Positions 5,874 through 44,338 of a DNA stretch of 49,836 nucleotides are shown here, one piece after another. The notes beneath the pieces were generated by a model. It was given only the letters and a program-made list of their open reading frames with translations, did no database searches and was not told where the DNA came from. The translations under genes and the position numbers were made by a program. The stretch's first letter is position 1; every line of letters starts with the position of its first letter. This DNA is from a virus (lineage: Duplodnaviria > Heunggongvirae > Uroviricota > Caudoviricetes). The stretch lies in the IMG/VR virus record IMGVR_UViG_2563366803_000005, positions 1 through 49,836 of that record. One strand, given 5' to 3'.

Positions 5874-6152
5874 TTAGGGAAACTGGCGTCTTGCGTGGAT
5901 CACGTTTACTACTTCAACGCTTGATGTTGTTACGCGGTATAGAATTATATAGTTAGGGTGGGCTACAATCTCACGCAAGCCAGGTACTCTGTCGCTTGGT
6001 GGGTATAAATACGGATGTTCGGATAACGGCAGCACACAACCCCTTAATCGCTGCCATAAGCGTTCAGCCGCATCTATGTCGAAACGAGCAATATAACTAG
6101 TTATATCATCTAGGTCGGTATCTGCGCTTTCAAGCCATAACACGGGTAACAT
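5874..6152 (-). CDS. parE: Type II toxin, ParE/RelE family
   Basis: 92 aa from ATG at 6152 (MLPVLWLESADTDLDDITSYIARFDIDAAERLWQ…HPNYIILYRVTTSSVEVVNVIHARRQFP), ParE-like length and C-terminal pattern. Start lies 1 nt after the antitoxin stop. Confidence 0.75.
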   Translation of the reverse strand: MLPVLWLESADTDLDDITSYIARFDIDAAERLWQRLRGCVLPLSEHPYLYPPSDRVPGLREIVAHPNYIILYRVTTSSVEVVNVIHARRQFP

Positions 6153-6153
6153 T

Positions 6154-6345
6154 TTACTGCTTGCTCCGTTCCTTACGCATCTTAGCAAAGCGTTCTGCCA
6201 TTCTGCGCTCAACTTCGTCATGGGGAATTGCTGGGCGCGGATCTGCAAGGCTCGTTGCTACTTTCGCACGCAGCCATTCGTTGTAACTGTTTTCTTGTTC
6301 AATGGTTTCAAATTCAGAAACCATTGGTGAAAGGGCTCTATTCAT
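6154..6345 (-). CDS. paaA: Small antitoxin (PaaA2-like) of a three-gene regulator-antitoxin-toxin operon
   Basis: 63 aa (MNRALSPMVSEFETIEQENSYNEWLRAKVATSLADPRPAIPHDEVERRMAERFAKMRKERSKQ). GGAGG RBS upstream of ATG 6345. Sits directly upstream of the ParE-like gene; size matches the described 63-residue PaaA2. Confidence 0.65.
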   Translation of the reverse strand: MNRALSPMVSEFETIEQENSYNEWLRAKVATSLADPRPAIPHDEVERRMAERFAKMRKERSKQ

Positions 6346-17337: not shown

Positions 17338-19314
17338 ATGGTGGAAAGAACCATGGCATTTAAACACTATGATGTTGTCAGGGCGGCATCGCCGTCAGAC
17401 CTTGCGAAACGACTGACACAAAAACTGAAGGAGGGGTGGCAGCCATTTGGCAGTCCGGTGGCCATCACGCCTTATACCCTGATGCAGGCCATTGCGGCGG
17501 AAGGTGATGTCACCACACCTGTGGTGGTGAAGCCGTCGGATGGAGAAGGCGCAGTTATCAGCACCACCAGCAACCCGGAGTATTACTTTGTTGTTGCCCT
17601 GGCCGGGCAGTCAAACGGTATGGCGTATGGTGAAGGGCTTCCGCTGCCGGAGACATATGACCGTCCGGACCCGCGTATTAAACAGCTGGCGCGTCGCAGC
17701 ACTGTCACGCCGGGTGGTGCGTCCTGTAACTACAATGACATTATTCCTGCGGACCACTGCCTGCATGATGTTCAGGATTTGAGTAAGTTTTCACACCCGA
17801 AAGCCAGCGCAGCTCAGTATGGATGCGTGGGGCAGGGATTACATATCGCGAAGAAATTGTTGCCGTTTATTCCGGCGAATGCCGGTATTCTTCTGGTTCC
17901 GTGCTGCCGTGGTGGTTCTGCATTTTTGGCGGGCGATGAAGGTACCTTCAGCGAATCCACCGGCGCAAGCGAGACCTCGGCACGCTGGGGTGTTGATAAG
18001 CCACTGTACAAGGACCTGCTTACCCGTACTCAGGCCGCACTGAAGGCCAACCCTAAAAATATTCTGCTTGCAGTGGTCTGGATGCAGGGCGAGTTTGATT
18101 TGAAACAGGGTGCATACGCCACTCAGCCGGGGCTGTTTGATTCCATGGTGGAAAAATATCGTTCTGACCTGTCGGAATTCGGAGGTCAGTGTCTCGGGGG
18201 CTCTCCGTCATCGGTTCCCTGGATTTGTGGCGACACGACCTACTACTGGAAGCAGACTTATTCTTCGCAATACGATGCGGTGTATGGTGCATACAAGACG
18301 AAATCCGCAAAAAAAATCTTCTTTGTGCCGTTTATGACGGATGAAAACGGGCGAAATGTGGGTACCAACGAGCCGTCAGAAGATCCGGATGTTGCGGATG
18401 TTGGGTATTACGGAGCCGGTGGTCGAACGGACGCCAAAACCTGGACGACGGCCGACCGTAAAACGCATTTTGGATCATGGGCACGTCGTGGGATTATTTC
18501 CGACCGTCTGGCAACGGCGATTCTTGTGCATGCCGGGAGAAACGCTGAATTCATTACCGGAAAACAGCCTGATACGGTGAAGCCCACCGGACCTTCCGGT
18601 GAAGGTACGGAGAGAGAGCCGGAAGCCCCGGTCAGTAACCGAACCCTGATGAGTCTGCTGGCGTCCGGCGAAGACCTGGCATCACAGGGCTGGCGCTATT
18701 ATCACAAACCGGCGAGCGGAGACAATGTTAACAAAAACATTGCTGAAGCGGTGGTCAGTGATGCGGGGGCTACGGGAGGTAAGGCCCTGCAACTGAATAA
18801 ACCGGAAAACCACATCTGGTTTCTGGAGCATGATGCAGCCGGACAGGGAGTGGAGTTACTGAAGAAGGGGGGACGTGTGAGCGTACGGTTTAAGTTGCCG
18901 GGTTCACTGGTGCCGAATCAGTTTGCCCTGGGCATTTACTGGCAGTTGTCGTCCCTGCCGGAGGGAGTGACGCTGGCAGAGGAAGGCAACGACATGCTGA
19001 TGTCCTTCTTCCTGCAGACGGATGCGACGAACCTGAACGCGATGCACCACAAGAAGCCGAATGCGAAGCTGGATACGTTCGGGGTCTTTGATAACGGATG
19101 GCACACACTGGCTTTTGAGTTTGCCGGAAACAACAGCATTCAGGTGACGCCGGTACTGGATGAGAAACGGGGGACGCCGTTCACACTGGTGAAATCTCCG
19201 GCATCAGGGGCGGCGGACAAACTGCAACTGACAGGCATATCAAAGGCGGCGACATATACGCTGCTGATTGACAGTGTGAAGGTGGAAGTGAACAACGCGG
19301 ACATCGCGGCATGA
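17338..19314 (+). CDS. nanS: Prophage sialate O-acetylesterase (NanS-p-like, SGNH/SASA domain) with C-terminal extension
   Basis: 658 aa (alternative start ATG 17353). GQSN motif (…VALAGQSNGMAYGEG…); C-terminal about 250 aa is beta-rich. Occupies the position downstream of Q where such esterases sit in Stx-type prophages. Confidence 0.75.
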   Translation: MVERTMAFKHYDVVRAASPSDLAKRLTQKLKEGWQPFGSPVAITPYTLMQAIAAEGDVTTPVVVKPSDGEGAVISTTSNPEYYFVVALAGQSNGMAYGEGLPLPETYDRPDPRIKQLARRSTVTPGGASCNYNDIIPADHCLHDVQDLSKFSHPKASAAQYGCVGQGLHIAKKLLPFIPANAGILLVPCCRGGSAFLAGDEGTFSESTGASETSARWGVDKPLYKDLLTRTQAALKANPKNILLAVVWMQGEFDLKQGAYATQPGLFDSMVEKYRSDLSEFGGQCLGGSPSSVPWICGDTTYYWKQTYSSQYDAVYGAYKTKSAKKIFFVPFMTDENGRNVGTNEPSEDPDVADVGYYGAGGRTDAKTWTTADRKTHFGSWARRGIISDRLATAILVHAGRNAEFITGKQPDTVKPTGPSGEGTEREPEAPVSNRTLMSLLASGEDLASQGWRYYHKPASGDNVNKNIAEAVVSDAGATGGKALQLNKPENHIWFLEHDAAGQGVELLKKGGRVSVRFKLPGSLVPNQFALGIYWQLSSLPEGVTLAEEGNDMLMSFFLQTDATNLNAMHHKKPNAKLDTFGVFDNGWHTLAFEFAGNNSIQVTPVLDEKRGTPFTLVKSPASGAADKLQLTGISKAATYTLLIDSVKVEVNNADIAA

Positions 19315-19916: not shown

Positions 19917-19992
19917 GCCTGCGCAAGGGACCATCGGTGTGTGCCGGTGGTCTTTATATTGTTGTGAGCTTCCGGATAACGGGAGACGGGGT

Positions 19993-20208
19993 ATGTACCA
20001 GATGGAAAAAATCACAACAGGTGTGTCATACACCACGTCAGCGGTGGGAACGGGCTACTGGTTCCTGCAGTTGCTGGACAGGGTTTCCCCGTCTCAGTGG
20101 GCGGCAATAGGCGTGCTGGGGAGTCTGCTGTTTGGGCTGCTGACGTACCTGACTAACCTGTATTTCAAAATCAAAGAGGACCGGCGTAAGGCGGCGCGGG
20201 GAGAGTAA
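19993..20208 (+). CDS. S: Holin (class I/II phage holin with dual-start motif)
   Basis: 71 aa ([11 protein letters not shown]…), two in-frame Met separated by two codons, hydrophobic segments and charged C-terminus ([13 protein letters not shown]). RBS GGGAGACGGGG. Confidence 0.8.
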
Positions 20209-20212
20209 AGTG

Positions 20213-21103
20213 ATGAATAAAAAATATGAACTGGTTGTTAAGGGGATAAATAATTACGGGGATAAGGTTACTGTTACTGTGAAGCCGGAAGGTGACGGGC
20301 AAGCGTCGCTGTTGTTGCCAGATGTGGCGATTAGTCTTGACCGTACTGAAGGTGCCACGCTGGAGTTTTACGAAGCTGAGGCGAAAAAGCAGGCGAAGCA
20401 GTTTTTCATGGATGTTGCTGCCGGGTTATGTGAATGGAACGAACCGTTGCCGGAAAAGCGCCCCGTAATTTTAGAGGCGCAGGATGTGTTGATAACCTAC
20501 AAAGGAAAGCTACCGGGAAGAATTACTTGTTCTCTGAAGATGCCGCCGTCAACACTGCGGTCAGAAAAAGATGATGTTGAATCACGTATTGAAAAACTGG
20601 AGAGCTACGTCGTTGAGCTGAATAAGAAATGGTCGATATTGGTGCCTTCTGGCGATGAAAAGCAGTTTGCTGCGTTTGACGATTATTGTCGGAAAGTGAT
20701 GAGCAGAAATCTCGCAGAGTGTTTCAGTATTCATAATGATAATTTCAGTGACCCGGAATGGGAGTGTAACCGGCCATCCTTTGTTGTATCCGGTGATGCT
20801 GGGAAAATAACCATCTCAGAAAATGGGAAAGTAACACCTCCATCGCACCAGCACAGTGAGGAGCTCATTGAATTTGCCATTGATTACCTGAAGAACAATA
20901 AAAAGCAGGGGCTGATGAAGCGCGTTGGCCGTTGCATGGGATATCTTCAGGTAGCCGCTGAGATTGAAGCGCTGGCCAGTGGTGCTGATAAGGATGCAAT
21001 TGTGCGGGAGGCTCTTCTTCGTGATTTTAATACTCCACCCTTTAAAAAAGTGCCGGCTTACTGGCTTCATCCGGGGCTGACTTATCTTAAAGTGCGTATT
21101 TAG
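20213..21103 (+). CDS. Uncharacterised 296-aa protein inserted between holin and endolysin
   Basis: ATG 20213 (GTG 20210) five nt after the holin stop; RBS GGGGAGAG. No TM segment or catalytic motif recognised. Confidence 0.6.
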   Translation: MNKKYELVVKGINNYGDKVTVTVKPEGDGQASLLLPDVAISLDRTEGATLEFYEAEAKKQAKQFFMDVAAGLCEWNEPLPEKRPVILEAQDVLITYKGKLPGRITCSLKMPPSTLRSEKDDVESRIEKLESYVVELNKKWSILVPSGDEKQFAAFDDYCRKVMSRNLAECFSIHNDNFSDPEWECNRPSFVVSGDAGKITISENGKVTPPSHQHSEELIEFAIDYLKNNKKQGLMKRVGRCMGYLQVAAEIEALASGADKDAIVREALLRDFNTPPFKKVPAYWLHPGLTYLKVRI

Positions 21104-21139: not shown

Positions 21140-21673
21140 ATGAACACCAAAATCAAATACGGCCTGTCGGCTGCCGTTCTGGCGCTGATTGCCGCTGGTG
21201 CGCCTGCGCCTGACATTCTCGACCAGTTTCTGGATGAAAAGGAAGGCAACCACACCACGGCATACCGTGATGGTGCAGGTATCTGGACCATCTGCCGTGG
21301 TGCCATCATGGTGGATGGCAAACCTGTCGTTCCGGGCATGAAGTTGTCGAAGGAAAAATGCGACCAGGTTAATGCCATTGAACGGGATAAGGCGCTGGCA
21401 TGGGTGGAGCGCAATATTAAAGTTCCACTGACCGAACCACAGAAAGCGGGTATAGCGTCATTCTGTCCCTATAACATTGGTCCCGGTAAGTGTTTCCCGT
21501 CGACGTTTTACAGACGAATTAATGCTGGTGATCGAAAAGGTGCCTGCGAAGCGATTCGCTGGTGGATTAAGGACGGTGGCAGAGACTGCCGTATTCGTTC
21601 AAACAACTGTTACGGTCAGGTATCCCGTCGTGACCAGGAGAGCGCGCTGGCGTGCTGGGGTATCGACAGATAA
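21140..21673 (+). CDS. R: SAR endolysin (T4-lysozyme-like muramidase, GH24)
   Basis: 177 aa. N-terminal signal-anchor-release segment (KYGLSAAVLALIAAGAPAP) and catalytic E-x8-D-x5-T (EGNHTTAYRDGAGIWTICRG). Confidence 0.85.
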   Translation: MNTKIKYGLSAAVLALIAAGAPAPDILDQFLDEKEGNHTTAYRDGAGIWTICRGAIMVDGKPVVPGMKLSKEKCDQVNAIERDKALAWVERNIKVPLTEPQKAGIASFCPYNIGPGKCFPSTFYRRINAGDRKGACEAIRWWIKDGGRDCRIRSNNCYGQVSRRDQESALACWGIDR

Positions 21674-22026: not shown

Positions 22027-22158
22027 ATGTCAGACAAACTCATAACGCTGGCGAAGATCCTCTGTGTAATTGTCGGCATTTCATTTTCACTAATGCTGGT
22101 TGCTCTTTTTCTTTCCATGGCCTGGATGATGTTGTCTTCGTCGGGGTTGCTGGGGTGA
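22027..22158 (+). CDS. Hypothetical 43-aa membrane peptide
   Basis: Strong RBS GAAGGGAGGA before ATG 22027 ([43 protein letters not shown]). Confidence 0.3.
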
Positions 22159-22628
22159 ACATAAACCGAATGCTTTCCGCGTTTATCGTTATTCTGCTGG
22201 TGGCCTGTGGTGCGCTGTGGATGGCAACAGACCATTACCGTGATAACGCGATTACCTACAAAGCGCAGCGCGATAACAAAGCCAGTGAACTGAAGCTGGC
22301 GAACGCAACCATTACTGATATGCAGGTGCGCCAGCGCGATGTTGCTGCGCTCGATGCAAAATACTCGAGGGAATTAGCCGATGCGAGAGCTGAAAATGAA
22401 ACTCTTCGCGCTGACGTTGCCGCTGGTCGTAAGCGCCTGCGGATCAACGCCACCTGTCCAGGCTCCGTGCGTGAAGCCCCCACCACCTCCGGCGTGGATA
22501 ATGCAACCGGCCCCCAACTGGCAGACACCGTTACACGGGATTATTTCACCCTCAGAGAGCGGCTGATGACGATGCACAAGCAACTGGAAGGGGCACAGGA
22601 CTATATCCGCACTCAGTGCCTGAAATAA
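22155..22628 (+). CDS. Rz: i-spanin Rz
   Basis: 157 aa (or 152 from ATG 22170); N-terminal TM then coiled-coil periplasmic domain; contains the embedded Rz1 frame. Confidence 0.8.
22396..22566 (+). CDS. Rz1: o-spanin Rz1 (embedded lipoprotein)
   Basis: 56 aa from ATG 22396 in the +1 frame inside Rz: lipoprotein signal ([15 protein letters not shown]) and proline-rich mature part ([16 protein letters not shown]). Confidence 0.75.
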
Positions 22629-22938
22629 GTTTTGTTGATGCGCCGTATCGTCGCTATATTCCCTCATTAACAGAGACCGCAGCCCGACAGGGAGACTCCT
22701 CTGCGCGAGTGTGCGGGGATAATTAAAAACGATGCACACCGGGTTTTTACCGCGTTAATGATTCGCGGGTTTATCCCGGTGCGATGGTGGAAGAAACAGG
22801 AAGCTGTATTACAGAAAGTGCTACTACTGTATCCCGATGCGATGTATGTAATGTGAGTCAGATAATGGCACAGGATGTGGTGATGTGGCAGTCTGGAACA
22901 CAGGATATATTGTCAGAATAAGACCCGTAGGAATAAAA

Positions 22939-23265
22939 ATGAAAAGACGCCTTTTACTACTTTTTCTGTTATCTGTCCTGGCAGTGGGATGCTCGCAGCA
23001 AAAAGCTGATGAGCCCCGGCAATTAGTGACGGTGTATCCACGATATCCGGAATATGCTGCAGCAAATTATATCAAGGGGCTGGTTGAGGTTAAGTTCGAT
23101 ATTGGTGCTGATGGGACTGTGACACGGATCGTTTTTCTCCGCTCAGAGCCTCATAATTTGTTTCGTGATGAAGTGGTGAAGGCCATGGCGAAATGGCGAT
23201 TTGAAAAGAATCGCCCCTGTCAGGGAGTGAAGAGACAATTTATCTTTACGCCGTCACGTCCTTGA
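22939..23265 (+). CDS. Lipoprotein with TonB C-terminal-like domain
   Basis: 108 aa from ATG 22939: signal peptide plus lipobox (LSVLAVGC); mature part follows the TonB-C pattern (YPxxAxxxxIxGxVxVxFxIxxDGxVxxIxxLxS…AxxWRF). Confidence 0.55.
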   Translation: MKRRLLLLFLLSVLAVGCSQQKADEPRQLVTVYPRYPEYAAANYIKGLVEVKFDIGADGTVTRIVFLRSEPHNLFRDEVVKAMAKWRFEKNRPCQGVKRQFIFTPSRP

Positions 23266-23387
23266 TGCTTCCAGGTAGAGAGGGGCTGGACGCAGGAGAA
23301 AAATGAAAGAGCCAGCGGTTATATTTTTGTCATGGCTGACGAGGAATGATGGAAGAAGGCGTTGTATGCCACACAACGCCTCACTGT

Positions 23388-23567
23388 TCATTTCTTCTTT
23401 TTCTCTGGTGGAACCCGATGAATAAGAGTTGCACTGGTTTCCGATGAGATGGCGATATACTCGGGCAAAGTATGCTGGCAGTTTTCCAACTGGTCAAAAA
23501 TACCTGCTCTCGTCTGTTGCAATGCCTGCAGCATGCGGCGGCAATGCGCCTTGCTTTTACTAACCAT
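23388..23567 (-). CDS. Hypothetical protein
   Basis: 59 aa from ATG 23567 (MVSKSKAHCRRMLQALQQTRAG…); AGGA RBS; lysine-rich C-terminus; minus strand between lysis cassette and cos. Confidence 0.3.
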   Translation of the reverse strand: MVSKSKAHCRRMLQALQQTRAGIFDQLENCQHTLPEYIAISSETSATLIHRVPPEKKKK

Positions 23568-23628
23568 CTTTCCTTCCTCTATCAGTCGCTGCGTGAACTC
23601 ATCATGTAATACCAGGTAAATGCGGATG

Positions 23629-23880
23629 TTATCGGTTTTGGCTACGCAGCATAGTACAAAACGGACAGGTGCATCCCGGGACGGGGGAGGTGTCACATGT
23701 CCCTGTGATGGTTGTTCCGGGTAATGCACTGTGTGGGGCATAAAAATGTCCGATAATTTTACTTTCTACCGCAGTTAGTTGATTCGTTGGTCCTGGTAGC
23801 ACATTGGGCGAGGATTTAAATGCCAGGCAACTGAAGGATGATGTTGCAAGGGAGATAGCGAGAATATTTCTGATTTTCAT
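23629..23880 (-). CDS. Hypothetical secreted protein
   Basis: 83 aa from ATG 23880 with N-terminal signal-like segment (MKIRNILAISLATSSFSCLA); Cys-rich C-terminus. Confidence 0.35.
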   Translation of the reverse strand: MKIRNILAISLATSSFSCLAFKSSPNVLPGPTNQLTAVESKIIGHFYAPHSALPGTTITGTCDTSPVPGCTCPFCTMLRSQNR

Positions 23881-24028
23881 TTGATGATGCCTCTGTGTGA
23901 AATGACGGTAAACGACGCACTTGTGCCGGCACATAATAGCAAGCACCATAATAGATCAGATTCGATTCTTGCTGTAAGTGATAATTATTCTCGTTTTCGG
24001 GTCCTTTCCGTCGATCCAACAGGTTACG

Positions 24029-24040
24029 GGGCGGCGACCT
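24029..24040 (+). other. cosN cohesive-end site (lambda-type)
   Basis: GGGCGGCGACCT followed by CGCGGGTTTTCGCTATTTATGAAAATTTTCCGG, matching the lambda left end as recalled; preceded by …AGGTTACG; cosB-like region continues to about 24200. Confidence 0.8.
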
Positions 24041-24223
24041 CGCGGGTTTTCGCTATTTATGAAAATTTTCCGGGAACCATGTCCGGTTTCTCTTCAAGTT
24101 AACTATATGAAAAATAAAAAAAGAGGTCTTCTGTGAACCGGACATGCACAAAAAATAGACATGTAAGCCGGACATGACCGGTTTTGTTGTGATTGTGAAG
24201 TGAGAGTTTTTGCGAGGTGAGGA

Positions 24224-24733
24224 GTGGCTACGCAGACTGAAGTTGCCAGGCATTTAAGTCTGACCGATCGCCAGCTTCGCAGATTGCAGAAATTGCCGGG
24301 TGCCCCGATATCGAATAAGCGAGGGCAACTGGATCTGGATGCCTGGCGCGATTTTTACATATCGTATCTGAGAAGAAGTAAAAACGATGTGCCTGATGGC
24401 GATAGCGAAGACGACTATGAGGAGAAATTGCTTATTGCCAGATGGGAACTGACAGCAGAACAGGCTGTTACACAGCAGTTAAAAAATGAGGTGTCAAAAG
24501 GAAAACTTATTGATACCGGGTTCTGTATTTTTGCCCTCAGCAAGCTGGCAATGGCGTTATCCAGTACGCTTGATTCCATCCCTTTATCCATGCAGCGACA
24601 GTTTCCTGATTTAACACCGCGCCATCTTGACCATCTGAAAACCCTTATTGCGAAGGGGGCAAATCAGTGTGCGCGGGCGGGGGATAAATTACCGGATTTA
24701 CTCGATGAATATATCAGAGCAACAACTGAATAA
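24224..24733 (+). CDS. nu1: Terminase small subunit (Nu1-like)
   Basis: 169 aa from GTG 24224 (RBS GAGGTGAGGA). N-terminal HTH; C-terminus resembles lambda Nu1 (…FALSKLAMALSSTLDSIPLSMQRQFPDL…). Confidence 0.8.
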   Translation: MATQTEVARHLSLTDRQLRRLQKLPGAPISNKRGQLDLDAWRDFYISYLRRSKNDVPDGDSEDDYEEKLLIARWELTAEQAVTQQLKNEVSKGKLIDTGFCIFALSKLAMALSSTLDSIPLSMQRQFPDLTPRHLDHLKTLIAKGANQCARAGDKLPDLLDEYIRATTE

Positions 24734-43738: not shown

Positions 43739-44338
43739 ATGCGTAAAGTTTGTGCAGCCATTTTGTCCGCAGCCATCTGTCTGTCCGTATCCGGTGCGCC
43801 TGCATGGGCGTCTGAACATCAGTCCACACTGAGCGCGGGGTATCTTCATGCCCGTACGAACGCTCCCGGCAGCGATAATCTGAACGGGATTAACGTGAAA
43901 TACCGTTATGAGTTTACGGACGCGCTGGGGCTGATTACGTCCTTCAGTTATGCCAATGCTGAGGATGAGCAAAAAACGCACTACAGCGATACCCGCTGGC
44001 ATGAAGATTCCGAGCGTAACCGCTGGTTCAGCGTGATGGCAGGGCCGTCTGTACGCGTGAATGAATGGTTCAGCGCGTATGCGATGGCGGGTGTGGCTTA
44101 CAGCCGTGTGTCGACTTTCTCCGGGGATTATCTCCGCGTAACTGACAACAAGGGGAAAACGCACGATGTGCTGACCGGAAGTGATGACGGTCGCCACAGC
44201 AACACGTCTCTGGCGTGGGGGGCTGGCGTGCAGTTTAACCCGACCGAATCCGTAACCATTGACCTTGCTTATGAAGGTTCCGGTAGTGGCGACTGGCGAA
44301 CGGATGCATTTATTGTTGGTATCGGATACCGTTTCTGA
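43739..44338 (+). CDS. lom: Outer-membrane protein Lom (Ail/PagC/Lom family)
   Basis: 199 aa; signal peptide and beta-barrel pattern ending …IVGIGYRF. Confidence 0.85.
   Translation: MRKVCAAILSAAICLSVSGAPAWASEHQSTLSAGYLHARTNAPGSDNLNGINVKYRYEFTDALGLITSFSYANAEDEQKTHYSDTRWHEDSERNRWFSVMAGPSVRVNEWFSAYAMAGVAYSRVSTFSGDYLRVTDNKGKTHDVLTGSDDGRHSNTSLAWGAGVQFNPTESVTIDLAYEGSGSGDWRTDAFIVGIGYRF

What the first reader, a model, noticed from the sequence alone, without database searches (positions are those of the whole stretch)
22939..23265. Lipoprotein with TonB C-terminal-like domain downstream of the lysis cassette
A 108-aa lipoprotein (lipobox LAVGC) carries the TonB-C pattern (YP…A……G.V.V.F.I..DG.V…V…S……D…………W.F). 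A prophage lipoprotein mimicking the TonB C-terminus could interfere with TonB-dependent outer-membrane receptors, a known route for superinfection exclusion and colicin resistance (the Cor/Llp principle). This is inference.
Basis: inference. Interest (0 to 1): 0.5.

Follow-up and report, generated by a model that had tools for sequence, protein, structure and literature searches.

The report
Prophage lipoprotein copying TonB's C-terminal domain
A lambdoid prophage gene, identical in classic phage 21 and present in about a fifth of complete E. coli genomes, encodes a small outer-membrane lipoprotein that is a faithful copy of the receptor-docking domain of TonB; it is expressed in lysogens and probably acts as a decoy that jams TonB-dependent entry of phages and colicins, but nobody has tested this.

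Summary
ORF 22939-23265 (+) encodes a 108-aa protein with a lipoprotein signal peptide (LAVG|C18, Ser at +2) and one TonB_C domain (Pfam E=7e-13). It aligns without gaps to E. coli TonB 153-235 (39% identity). The AlphaFold model superposes on TonB from the BtuB:TonB crystal at 1.0 Å. All seven TonB C-terminal residues shown experimentally to matter for transporter/colicin recognition are kept (Y215 as Phe). TonB's membrane anchor and proline-rich spacer are absent, so it cannot transduce energy.

The gene is real and selected: dN/dS is 0.12 against a 72%-identical clade. It occupies the same lysis-to-terminase slot in four different phage backbones. In E. coli LF82 the identical gene is transcribed in the lysogen at host-tonB-like levels while flanking late genes are silent.

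It is already annotated ("TonB family protein", "TonB fragment"; PHROGs mislabels it a spanin), but I found no functional study.

The best explanation, which is inference, is an outer-membrane-tethered dominant-negative TonB decoy giving exclusion of TonB-dependent phages and colicins (confidence 0.4). Chromosomal, non-prophage homologues in Raoultella and Erwinia leave room for another envelope role. Interest is moderate and the idea is easy to test.

The parts
22939..23265 (+). Gene for the 108-aa TonB_C lipoprotein (100% identical to phage 21 CPT_21_73, Perceval PERCE_65/LF82_160 and NCBI WP_000830178.1)
22930..22932 (+). Shine-Dalgarno-like GGA, 6 nt before the ATG (the equivalent site is annotated as RBS in phage 21)
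   Evidence: conserved GGAAT.AAAATG in the JLK-2012 clade
22939..22992 (+). Lipoprotein signal peptide, residues 1-18, ending in lipobox A-V-G-C18 (the Cys is the lipidated first residue of the mature protein)
   Evidence: direct reading; Cys invariant in all small homologues; modelled as a low-confidence N-terminal helix 3-15
22993..23013 (+). Short tether, residues 19-25 (SQQKADE). Ser at +2 implies Lol sorting to the outer membrane
   Evidence: direct reading plus the established +2 rule; lower pLDDT than the domain (block means 57, 56, 82 for residues 1-30)
23014..23247 (+). TonB C-terminal-type domain, residues 26-103, equivalent to E. coli TonB 153-230: short strand, helix 38-42, strands 47-55 and 61-70, helix 76-83, strand 94-103 (the counterpart of TonB beta3, the TonB-box docking strand)
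23248..23265 (+). Five-residue Pro-rich tail (TPSRP) and stop codon; the protein has no counterpart of TonB residues 236-239
22665..22760 (+). Upstream block better conserved (88.5%) than the gene itself (73% nt) between the two E. coli phage clades; candidate regulatory region, function unknown
   Evidence: no consensus sigma-70 site, no Fur box, no Rfam match
22155..22628 (+). Context: Rz i-spanin with embedded Rz1 o-spanin (22381-22566). The phage has its own complete spanin pair
24224..24733 (+). Context: terminase small subunit, the downstream boundary of the moron slot

Best explanation
The gene is a lysogenic-conversion ('moron') gene. [quoted passage not shown] There a tether of about 8 residues holds a complete TonB C-terminal domain at the periplasmic face where TonB-dependent transporters expose their TonB boxes.

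It keeps TonB's docking strand and recognition residues but has no membrane anchor, no proline-rich spacer and no link to ExbB/ExbD. It can therefore bind what TonB binds but cannot deliver energy. The candidate partners are the TonB boxes of FhuA, BtuB, FepA, CirA and similar transporters, the TonB boxes of incoming group B colicins, or possibly TonB's own C-terminal domain.

It would then act as a competitive, dominant-negative decoy. This would lower TonB-dependent irreversible adsorption or DNA entry of T1/phi80-type phages and the import of TonB-dependent colicins, microcins and siderophore-linked antibiotics, at some cost in siderophore uptake.

Shown here: the sequence, domain and fold; conservation of key residues; selection; the genomic slot; lysogen transcription (published RNA-seq). 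Inferred: outer-membrane localisation (from sorting rules), binding to TonB boxes, and the exclusion phenotype.
For: 1. Domain and fold: Pfam TonB_C E=7e-13. Gapless alignment to E. coli TonB. AF2 pLDDT 87.6 overall and >96 in the domain. Foldseek top hits are all TonB CTDs, including the transporter-bound forms 2gsk_B (rmsd 1.0 Å, TMt 0.92) and 2grx_C.

2. Recognition residues: the seven functionally important TonB C-terminal residues (Y163, F180, G186, F202, W213, Y215, F230; PMC3005593) map to Y36, F53, G59, F75, W86, F88, F103. Across the whole lipoprotein family they are invariant or vary only F/Y, with one Met at the F230 position in 26 sequences. That paper notes W213, Y215 and F230 are conserved in only 22-26% of TonBs generally but are conserved among enteric bacteria.

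3. Docking strand: the TonB box docks by beta-augmentation on TonB beta3 (PMC11658791; PMC2533080). The equivalent strand 94-103 is modelled with high confidence and is followed by only 5 residues.

4. Localisation: lipobox with S/T/A at +2 in all family members.

5. Not TonB: scores 58-69 bits against TonB equivalog cutoffs of 265-448.

6. Expression: in LF82 prophage Perceval (protein 100% identical) the gene reads log2(5+FPKM) 5.0-6.6 in all conditions. Rz reads 2.3-3.7, TerS 2.3-4.3 and host tonB 4.2-7.2.

7. Selection: dN/dS 0.12 at dS of about 1.5.

8. Slot: the same lysis-to-terminase position in phage 21, JLK-2012/Stx1a phages, a Klebsiella phage and an HK97-like contig.

9. Precedent: overexpressed periplasmic TonB domain inhibits TonB-dependent iron import (Howard et al. 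2001, cited in PMC9841981). From my own recollection of that abstract, phi80 infection and colicin M killing were inhibited too.
Against: No phenotype has been measured, and no paper on this protein was found in ten literature searches.

Homologues at 42-49% domain identity to the window protein (up to 88% to the Klebsiella phage copy), with the same lipobox, sit in ordinary chromosomal contexts: Raoultella next to lacZ/lacI or EAL/GNAT genes, Erwinia next to araBA, and a metagenomic contig next to ahpCF. A constitutive TonB inhibitor would be an odd housekeeping gene, so the family may have another native partner.

TonB Q160 and R166, which lie near the bound TonB box or cork (recalled from memory), are Tyr/Leu and Tyr here.

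The gene travels with different tail and packaging modules, so it is not tied to a phage that itself uses a TonB-dependent receptor.

No Fur box or recognisable promoter was found. There is no PADLOC match. A TonB block should cost iron uptake.
Confidence: 0.4

Rival explanations
1. It is an envelope or host-fitness lipoprotein unrelated to TonB competition. The TonB-type domain would bind peptidoglycan or another periplasmic/outer-membrane partner, stabilising the envelope or aiding survival in the host, as the neighbouring Bor lipoprotein does for serum resistance.
For: It occupies the same moron slot as bor and is divergently adjacent to bor in phage 21 and Perceval. It is expressed constitutively in the lysogen and barely changes in macrophages (log2FC 0.26). 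Chromosomal non-prophage homologues imply a cell-physiological role. Family-specific conserved residues absent from TonB (Y39, S69-E70-P71, L74) hint at a distinct interface. From memory: TonB's CTD has been reported to have affinity for peptidoglycan.
Against: The residues retained are precisely those TonB uses for transporter and colicin discrimination, including ones poorly conserved among TonBs in general. There is no sequence relation to Bor, OmpA-like or LysM domains.
Confidence: 0.25
2. It is a selective modulator rather than a general inhibitor. It would dock on one particular transporter or on a TonB-box-bearing signalling domain, tuning uptake or signalling of one substrate to the lysogen's benefit. 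It could also be a narrow exclusion factor for one receptor.
For: TonB's aromatic residues give idiosyncratic, ligand-specific phenotypes when changed. The family differs from TonB at Q160 and R166 and between clades at position 33 (Y/L/H/T/K/P), as expected if specificity has been retuned. mRNA is only about equal to tonB, while transporters outnumber TonB (recalled from memory; not checked here), which favours a specific high-affinity target over global titration.
Against: No linked transporter or iron gene occurs in any context examined. No target can be named from sequence.
Confidence: 0.2
3. It is a lysis accessory or spanin-type protein, as its PHROGs family name ('Rz-like spanin') and its position after Rz suggest.
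For: Full-length match to phrog_1267, labelled Rz-like spanin (E=5e-43). It is an outer-membrane lipoprotein immediately downstream of the lysis genes and on the late-transcript strand.
Against: The phage has its own intact Rz/Rz1 pair (Pfam E=2e-47 and 4e-20). The protein has no Rz1 match and is a 90-residue globular domain, not a short Pro-rich peptide. It is transcribed in the lysogen when Rz is silent. Chromosomal homologues lack any lysis genes. The PHROG label is most simply an annotation carried over from neighbours.
Confidence: 0.05
4. It is a non-functional remnant of a captured tonB gene ('TonB fragment', 'partial tonB-like protein').
For: Database names. It covers only the last third of TonB.
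Against: dN/dS 0.12. The protein is 100% identical across 55 of the 80 viral contigs returned and in 7 phage records. It has acquired a lipoprotein signal peptide that TonB lacks. It is only 39% identical to E. coli TonB, so it is not a recent fragment. It is confidently folded and expressed.
Confidence: 0.03

Closest known systems
TonB C-terminal domain of E. coli TonB (PDB 1U07, 2GSK chain B, 2GRX chain C)
   Same: Same fold (rmsd 0.7-1.2 Å, TM 0.88-0.92). 39% identity without gaps over TonB 153-235. YP motif, G186 and all functionally important aromatic residues are retained. The beta3-equivalent edge strand is present.
   Different: It has no N-terminal transmembrane anchor, no Pro-rich spacer and no ExbB/ExbD coupling. 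Instead it has a lipoprotein signal peptide and a short tether to the outer membrane. Q160 and R166 are replaced. It ends 5 residues after beta3.
Engineered periplasmic TonB fragments (Howard, Herrmann, Stratilo and Braun 2001, J Bacteriol 183:5885)
   Same: A TonB C-terminal portion placed in the periplasm without its anchor. Reported to inhibit TonB-dependent iron import, and, from my recollection of the abstract, phi80 infection and colicin M killing. This is the mechanistic model proposed here.
   Different: Those were soluble, overexpressed, 118 or more residues long, and artificial. This protein is natural, shorter (about 83-residue domain), lipid-anchored to the outer membrane and expressed at roughly tonB mRNA level. 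I could not read the paper itself.
Superinfection-exclusion lipoproteins Llp (T5) and Cor (phi80, N15, HK022)
   Same: Small phage-encoded outer-membrane lipoproteins acting from the periplasmic side on a TonB-dependent transporter (FhuA) to block incoming phage (abstracts). The proposed working principle is the same.
   Different: There is no sequence or domain relation: Pfam finds only TonB_C. Llp and Cor are specific for FhuA, whereas a TonB mimic could in principle address every TonB box. Function is demonstrated for Llp and Cor and not for this protein.
Bor/Iss lipoprotein of lambda
   Same: An outer-membrane lipoprotein moron in the same Rz-to-cos slot, expressed in lysogens, and adjacent in phage 21 and Perceval.
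   Different: An unrelated fold and family. In this window bor is absent between Rz and the gene.
Chromosomal single-domain TonB_C lipoproteins of Enterobacterales (Raoultella, Erwinia; uncharacterised)
   Same: Same size, lipobox and domain, with 42-49% domain identity to the window protein. The Klebsiella phage copy is 88% identical to a Raoultella planticola chromosomal gene.
   Different: They are not in prophages and their function is unknown.

Membership tests
TonB_C domain (Pfam PF03544 / TIGR01352) | Sequence score above the curated threshold | tested here: met
   PF03544 49.2 bits against 24.6; TIGR01352 47.4 against 27.1
TonB_C domain (Pfam PF03544 / TIGR01352) | Fold of two helices packed on a three-stranded sheet, with the YP motif | tested here: met
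   AF2 secondary structure H38-42, E47-55, E61-70, H76-83, E94-103. Foldseek probability 1.00 to eleven TonB CTD structures. Y36-P37 = Y163-P164
TonB energy transducer (NCBIfam TonB equivalogs NF008080-NF008084) | Full-length score above the equivalog cutoff | tested here: not met
   45-69 bits against cutoffs of 265-448; only the last ~85 model positions match
TonB energy transducer (NCBIfam TonB equivalogs NF008080-NF008084) | Uncleaved N-terminal transmembrane anchor that couples to ExbB/ExbD, plus a Pro-rich periplasm-spanning spacer | tested here: not met
   The N-terminus is an 18-residue lipoprotein signal peptide. Only 7 residues separate Cys18 from the domain, and there is no Pro-rich region
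Bacterial lipoprotein (signal peptidase II substrate) | Lipobox [LVI..][ASTVI][GAS]-C after a positive n-region and a hydrophobic core | tested here: met
   MKRR-LLLLFLLSVL-AVG-C18; the Cys is invariant in all small homologues. Lipidation itself is not testable here
Bacterial lipoprotein (signal peptidase II substrate) | Outer-membrane sorting (no Asp at +2) | tested here: met
   +2 is S/T/A in every member. This is rule-based inference, not a localisation experiment
Cor / Llp superinfection-exclusion lipoproteins | Sequence homology to Cor or Llp | tested here: not met
   Pfam and PHROGs scans return only TonB_C, phrog_1267 and phrog_34172 plus weak signal-peptide hits; no Cor or Llp family
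Cor / Llp superinfection-exclusion lipoproteins | Blocks infection through a TonB-dependent receptor | not testable with these tools
   Needs plating and adsorption assays
Rz1-type o-spanin (the PHROGs label of phrog_1267) | Rz1 family match; short Pro-rich mature peptide; gene embedded in or overlapping the i-spanin gene | tested here: not met
   The genuine Rz1 (PF06085, E=4e-20) is embedded in Rz at 22381-22566. This gene lies 310 bp downstream, is globular and has no Rz1 match
Known anti-phage defence systems (PADLOC) | Match to any PADLOC model | tested here: not met
   No hit at E<=0.1
Moron / lysogenic-conversion gene | Transcribed in the lysogen independently of flanking late genes | tested here: met
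   Published RNA-seq for the identical gene in LF82 Perceval shows it about 4-16x above Rz and TerS in all five conditions. No promoter could be identified from sequence

The most novel reading that the evidence does not exclude
This would be a receptor-independent exclusion principle. A phage-borne, outer-membrane-anchored decoy of the TonB docking domain would cap the TonB boxes of all TonB-dependent transporters and of incoming group B colicins. A fifth of E. coli genomes would then carry a prophage gene that globally dampens TonB-dependent entry of phages (T1/phi80-like), colicins, microcins and siderophore-conjugated antibiotics. Chromosomal relatives in other Enterobacterales would be endogenous brakes on TonB-dependent uptake.
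Probability: 0.3. Interest if true: 0.75.

Novelty: new variant of a known kind. Interest (0 to 1): 0.5.

Why it matters
If the decoy model is right, it adds a new exclusion logic: mimicry of the host energy transducer instead of blocking one receptor. This would sit in a gene carried by classic phage 21, several Stx1a-converting phages and about 22% of complete E. coli genomes.

It would bear on phage-therapy host range, since many therapeutic and model phages use TonB-dependent receptors. It would also bear on colicin and microcin ecology in the gut, and possibly on uptake of siderophore-antibiotic conjugates.

It would also give TonB researchers a natural, evolution-optimised inhibitor of the TonB/TonB-box interaction. 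If the model is wrong, the family is still a widespread, strongly conserved, lysogen-expressed lipoprotein of unknown role.

Tried and rejected
- Fur box search (19-mer consensus, up to 3 mismatches): none in the window. Iron regulation is therefore not indicated.
- Sigma-70 promoter scan: no + strand site upstream of the gene. Manual reading found only poor candidates whose spacing is not conserved in the JLK-2012 clade.
- Rfam on 22500-24300: nothing meaningful. Folding of the conserved upstream block gave z=-2, which is unconvincing.
- PADLOC: no match.
- BFVD viral structure library: no significant match, so the fold is rare among catalogued viral proteins.
- AFDB50 fold search: library unavailable.
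- Howard et al. 2001 could not be opened, so I rely on a secondary citation plus memory.
- APEC prophage paper on iron acquisition (PMC7724020): its orf6 is a tail-fibre protein, not this gene.
- The FhuA/tonB mentions in the TldR prophage paper are unrelated.
- J-protein C-terminus comparison: closest to Stx-phage J proteins, receptor unknown. It gives no evidence that this prophage itself uses a TonB-dependent receptor, so 'self-exclusion' could not be supported.
- Genome-wide species scan: the first alignment was too diverse, and the second pattern was narrow and returned only 4 loci. The taxonomic breadth is therefore under-sampled.
- Complex prediction with TonB-box peptides was not possible under the tool's input restriction.

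Full report
**1. What is in the sequence**

ORF 22939-23265 on the + strand encodes 108 residues: MKRRLLLLFLLSVLAVGCSQQKADEPRQLVTVYPRYPEYAAANYIKGLVEVKFDIGADGTVTRIVFLRSEPHNLFRDEVVKAMAKWRFEKNRPCQGVKRQFIFTPSRP.
- A GGA motif lies 6 nt before the ATG.
- The mechanical ORF reaches back to a GTG at 22885. All homologues begin at the MKR/MKK of the 108-aa form, and phage 21 is annotated that way.
- The N-terminus is a textbook lipoprotein signal: a positive n-region, a hydrophobic core, A-V-G-C18.
- The rest is one TonB_C domain: Pfam PF03544, 49.2 bits against a 24.6-bit cutoff, E=7e-13; TIGR01352, 47.4 against 27.1.
- The gene lies after a complete lysis cassette and before the terminase genes. The order is P21-type holin 19939-20208, a DUF1327 ORF, lysozyme 21140-21673, Rz 22155-22628 with embedded Rz1 22381-22566, this gene, then terminase from 24224.

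**2. How TonB-like it is**

phmmer against PDB sequences puts E. coli TonB chains first (E=1.4e-14), with a gapless alignment of residues 24-103. Residue n corresponds to TonB n+127. Identity over TonB 153-235 is 38.6%.

An AlphaFold2 model built on a 26-sequence alignment has mean pLDDT 87.6 and block means of 96-98 across residues 31-100. Foldseek against the PDB returns only TonB C-terminal domains at the top:

| PDB chain | What it is | rmsd | Other |
|---|---|---|---|
| 1u07_A | TonB C-terminal fragment | 1.1 Å | TMt 0.90 |
| 1u07_B | TonB C-terminal fragment | 0.7 Å | TMt 0.88 |
| 2gsk_B | TonB bound to BtuB | 1.0 Å over 79 columns | TMt 0.92, 40% identity |
| 2grx_C | TonB bound to FhuA | 1.2 Å | TMt 0.91 |

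TolA domains follow far behind.

Postle and colleagues found by scanning 91 Cys substitutions that only seven residues of the TonB carboxy terminus are functionally important: Y163, F180, G186, F202, W213, Y215 and F230. They act in discriminating among transporters and colicins. W213, Y215 and F230 are conserved in only 22-26% of TonBs overall but are conserved among enterics (PMC3005593).
- In the phage protein these positions are Y36, F53, G59, F75, W86, F88 and F103.
- Across 26 family members they are invariant or vary only F/Y, apart from one Met at the F230 position.
- The strand equivalent to TonB beta3 is residues 94-103, modelled at high confidence. TonB beta3 is the strand onto which the TonB box of FhuA or BtuB adds as a parallel strand (PMC11658791; PMC2533080).
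- That strand is followed by only five residues, TPSRP.
- The differences are Q160 to Tyr (Leu in the sister clade) and R166 to Tyr.

**3. What it is not**

It is not TonB.
- The TonB equivalog models score 45-69 bits against cutoffs of 265-448, and only their last ~85 positions match.
- There is no transmembrane anchor and no proline-rich spacer. Only 7 residues separate the lipidated Cys from the domain.
- It therefore cannot couple to ExbB/ExbD or span the periplasm. This follows from the established architecture of TonB.

It is not a spanin, despite a full-length match to phrog_1267, which is labelled 'Rz-like spanin'.
- The phage has its own Rz/Rz1 pair.
- The protein is globular and has no Rz1 match.

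It matches no PADLOC defence model and nothing significant in the BFVD viral structure library.

**4. It is a real, selected, mobile gene**

The window's protein is 100% identical to the following:
- CPT_21_73 of phage 21 ('TonB C-terminal domain protein');
- genes of phages ev017, PhiR47_2, PhiR57_1 and PhiR63_2;
- the gene in Perceval ('TonB fragment');
- NCBI WP_000830178.1 ('TonB family protein').

The 901-bp region is at least 80% covered in 1218 of 5426 complete E. coli genomes.

A sister clade at 72% identity occurs in JLK-2012, Lys8385Vzw and Stx1a-converting phages. Between the two clades dN/dS is 0.12 at dS of about 1.5. This rules out a decaying 'fragment'.

More distant lipobox-bearing relatives at 39-45% full-length identity (42-50% over the domain) occupy the same lysis-to-terminase slot in other phage backbones:
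- Klebsiella phage ST13-OXA48phi12.4;
- a contig with HNH/Terminase_4/HK97-type head genes.

Relatives also occur in plainly non-prophage chromosomal settings:
- Raoultella ornithinolytica, next to lacZ/lacI and DUF1440;
- R. planticola, next to EAL/GAF and GNAT genes;
- Erwinia, next to araBA;
- a metagenomic contig, next to ahpCF.

Over the domain, family members are 42-64% identical to each other in most pairs and 35-42% identical to E. coli TonB. The outliers are P0050 at 35-47%, and 78% and 88% for the two closest pairs. The Klebsiella phage copy is 88% identical to the R. planticola chromosomal gene.

The picture is a family of small outer-membrane TonB_C lipoproteins of Enterobacterales that phages have repeatedly placed in the classical moron slot.

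**5. Expression**

In E. coli LF82 the identical Perceval gene (LF82_160) was listed among prophage genes expressed 8-fold above local background in the lysogen (PMC9928086). The supplementary tables give log2(5+FPKM) values:

| Gene | log2(5+FPKM) |
|---|---|
| LF82_160 (this gene) | 5.0-6.6 in all five conditions |
| Rz | 2.3-3.7 |
| Terminase small subunit | 2.3-4.3 (floor 2.32) |
| Host tonB | 4.2-7.2 |

So the gene is transcribed independently of the late operon, at about the level of tonB itself.

I could not find its promoter.
- There is no consensus sigma-70 site on the + strand and no Fur box.
- A block at 22665-22760 is better conserved between clades (88.5%) than the gene itself (73%). 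This may be regulatory.

**6. Mechanism**

The best-supported reading is an outer-membrane-tethered, energy-dead TonB docking domain that competes with TonB.
[quoted passage not shown] That is the face where TonB boxes are presented.
- The docking strand and the recognition residues are intact.
- The protein cannot transduce energy.
- Overproduction of periplasmic TonB fragments is reported to inhibit TonB-dependent iron import (Howard et al. 2001, as cited in PMC9841981). By my recollection of the abstract it also inhibits phi80 infection and colicin M killing. I could not open that paper.
- Phage lipoproteins that disable a TonB-dependent receptor from the periplasmic side are established for Llp and Cor (abstracts).

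The expected benefit is exclusion of TonB-dependent phages and tolerance to group B colicins and microcins.

Everything from 'binds TonB boxes' onward is inference. I put this at 0.4. The rivals are:

| Rival | Confidence |
|---|---|
| Bor-like envelope role or binding to another partner | 0.25 |
| Retuned, target-specific modulator | 0.2 |
| Lysis accessory | 0.05 |
| Dead remnant | 0.03 |

The chief arguments against the decoy model are the chromosomal homologues, the substitutions at Q160 and R166, the likely iron cost, and the absence of linkage to any particular receptor-binding module.

**7. Novelty and verdict**

The gene and its TonB-like nature are already in the databases, under inconsistent and partly wrong names. 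In ten full-text searches I found no functional study.

As a thing it is a new variant of known kinds: a TonB_C domain protein and a phage moron lipoprotein. As a hypothesis it is attractive, cheap to test and relevant to a large fraction of E. coli. Interest is 0.5.

Noticed in passing
window 22665-22760: A non-coding block upstream of the gene is 88.5% identical between this window and phage JLK-2012. The gene itself is 73% identical, and the 140 bp just before the start codon only 51%. It contains a conserved CCGCG...CGCGG hairpin. There is no Rfam match and no consensus promoter. It may be the moron's regulatory region.
   Followed up: partly
window 22784-22921 (+): A 45-codon ORF, annotated as hypothetical CPT_21_72 in phage 21. 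Its first ~10 residues (MVEE.G.C.T) are conserved in JLK-2012, but that copy stops after 21 codons. It may be a leader peptide or not a gene.
   Followed up: partly
L013 (Klebsiella phage ST13-OXA48phi12.4) 3423-3791 versus L095 (Raoultella planticola chromosome) 6001-6330: The phage-borne TonB_C lipoprotein is 88% identical over the domain to a chromosomal gene in a non-prophage context (EAL/GAF, GNAT, SRAP neighbours). This indicates recent exchange of the gene between chromosome and phage.
   Followed up: partly
window 22629-22938 compared with L001 (phage 21) 3527-3820: Phage 21 and Perceval carry bor on the opposite strand between Rz and the TonB_C gene. In this window homology to phage 21 begins only at about 22640 and bor is missing, so the slot has been remodelled.
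   Followed up: partly
window 17338-19314 (+): A 658-aa protein with DUF1737, an SASA sialate-O-acetylesterase domain and DUF6645, just upstream of the holin. In strain 7/2 the equivalent gene is a truncated pseudogene.
   Followed up: no
window 20210-21103 (+): A 297-aa DUF1327 (YdfR-like) ORF sits between the holin and the lysozyme. It is annotated as an incomplete pseudogene in the otherwise identical region of strain 7/2.
   Followed up: no
window 43739-44338 (+): A full-length Ail/Lom outer-membrane protein gene after J (Pfam E=1.5e-125): a second envelope moron in the same prophage.
   Followed up: no
window 23629-23949 (-): A minus-strand ORF whose internal start MKIRNILAISLATSSFSCLAF... 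looks like a signal peptide, lying between the TonB_C gene and the terminase. It has no family match, and only a shorter overlapping ORF is annotated in strain 7/2.
   Followed up: no
Perceval prophage of E. coli LF82 (PMC9928086): The same prophage that carries the identical TonB_C lipoprotein also carries sitABCD, described in that paper as improving manganese and iron import. If, as I assume, this route is TonB-independent, it could offset an iron cost of TonB inhibition. This is pure speculation, and sitABCD is not in this window.
   Followed up: no
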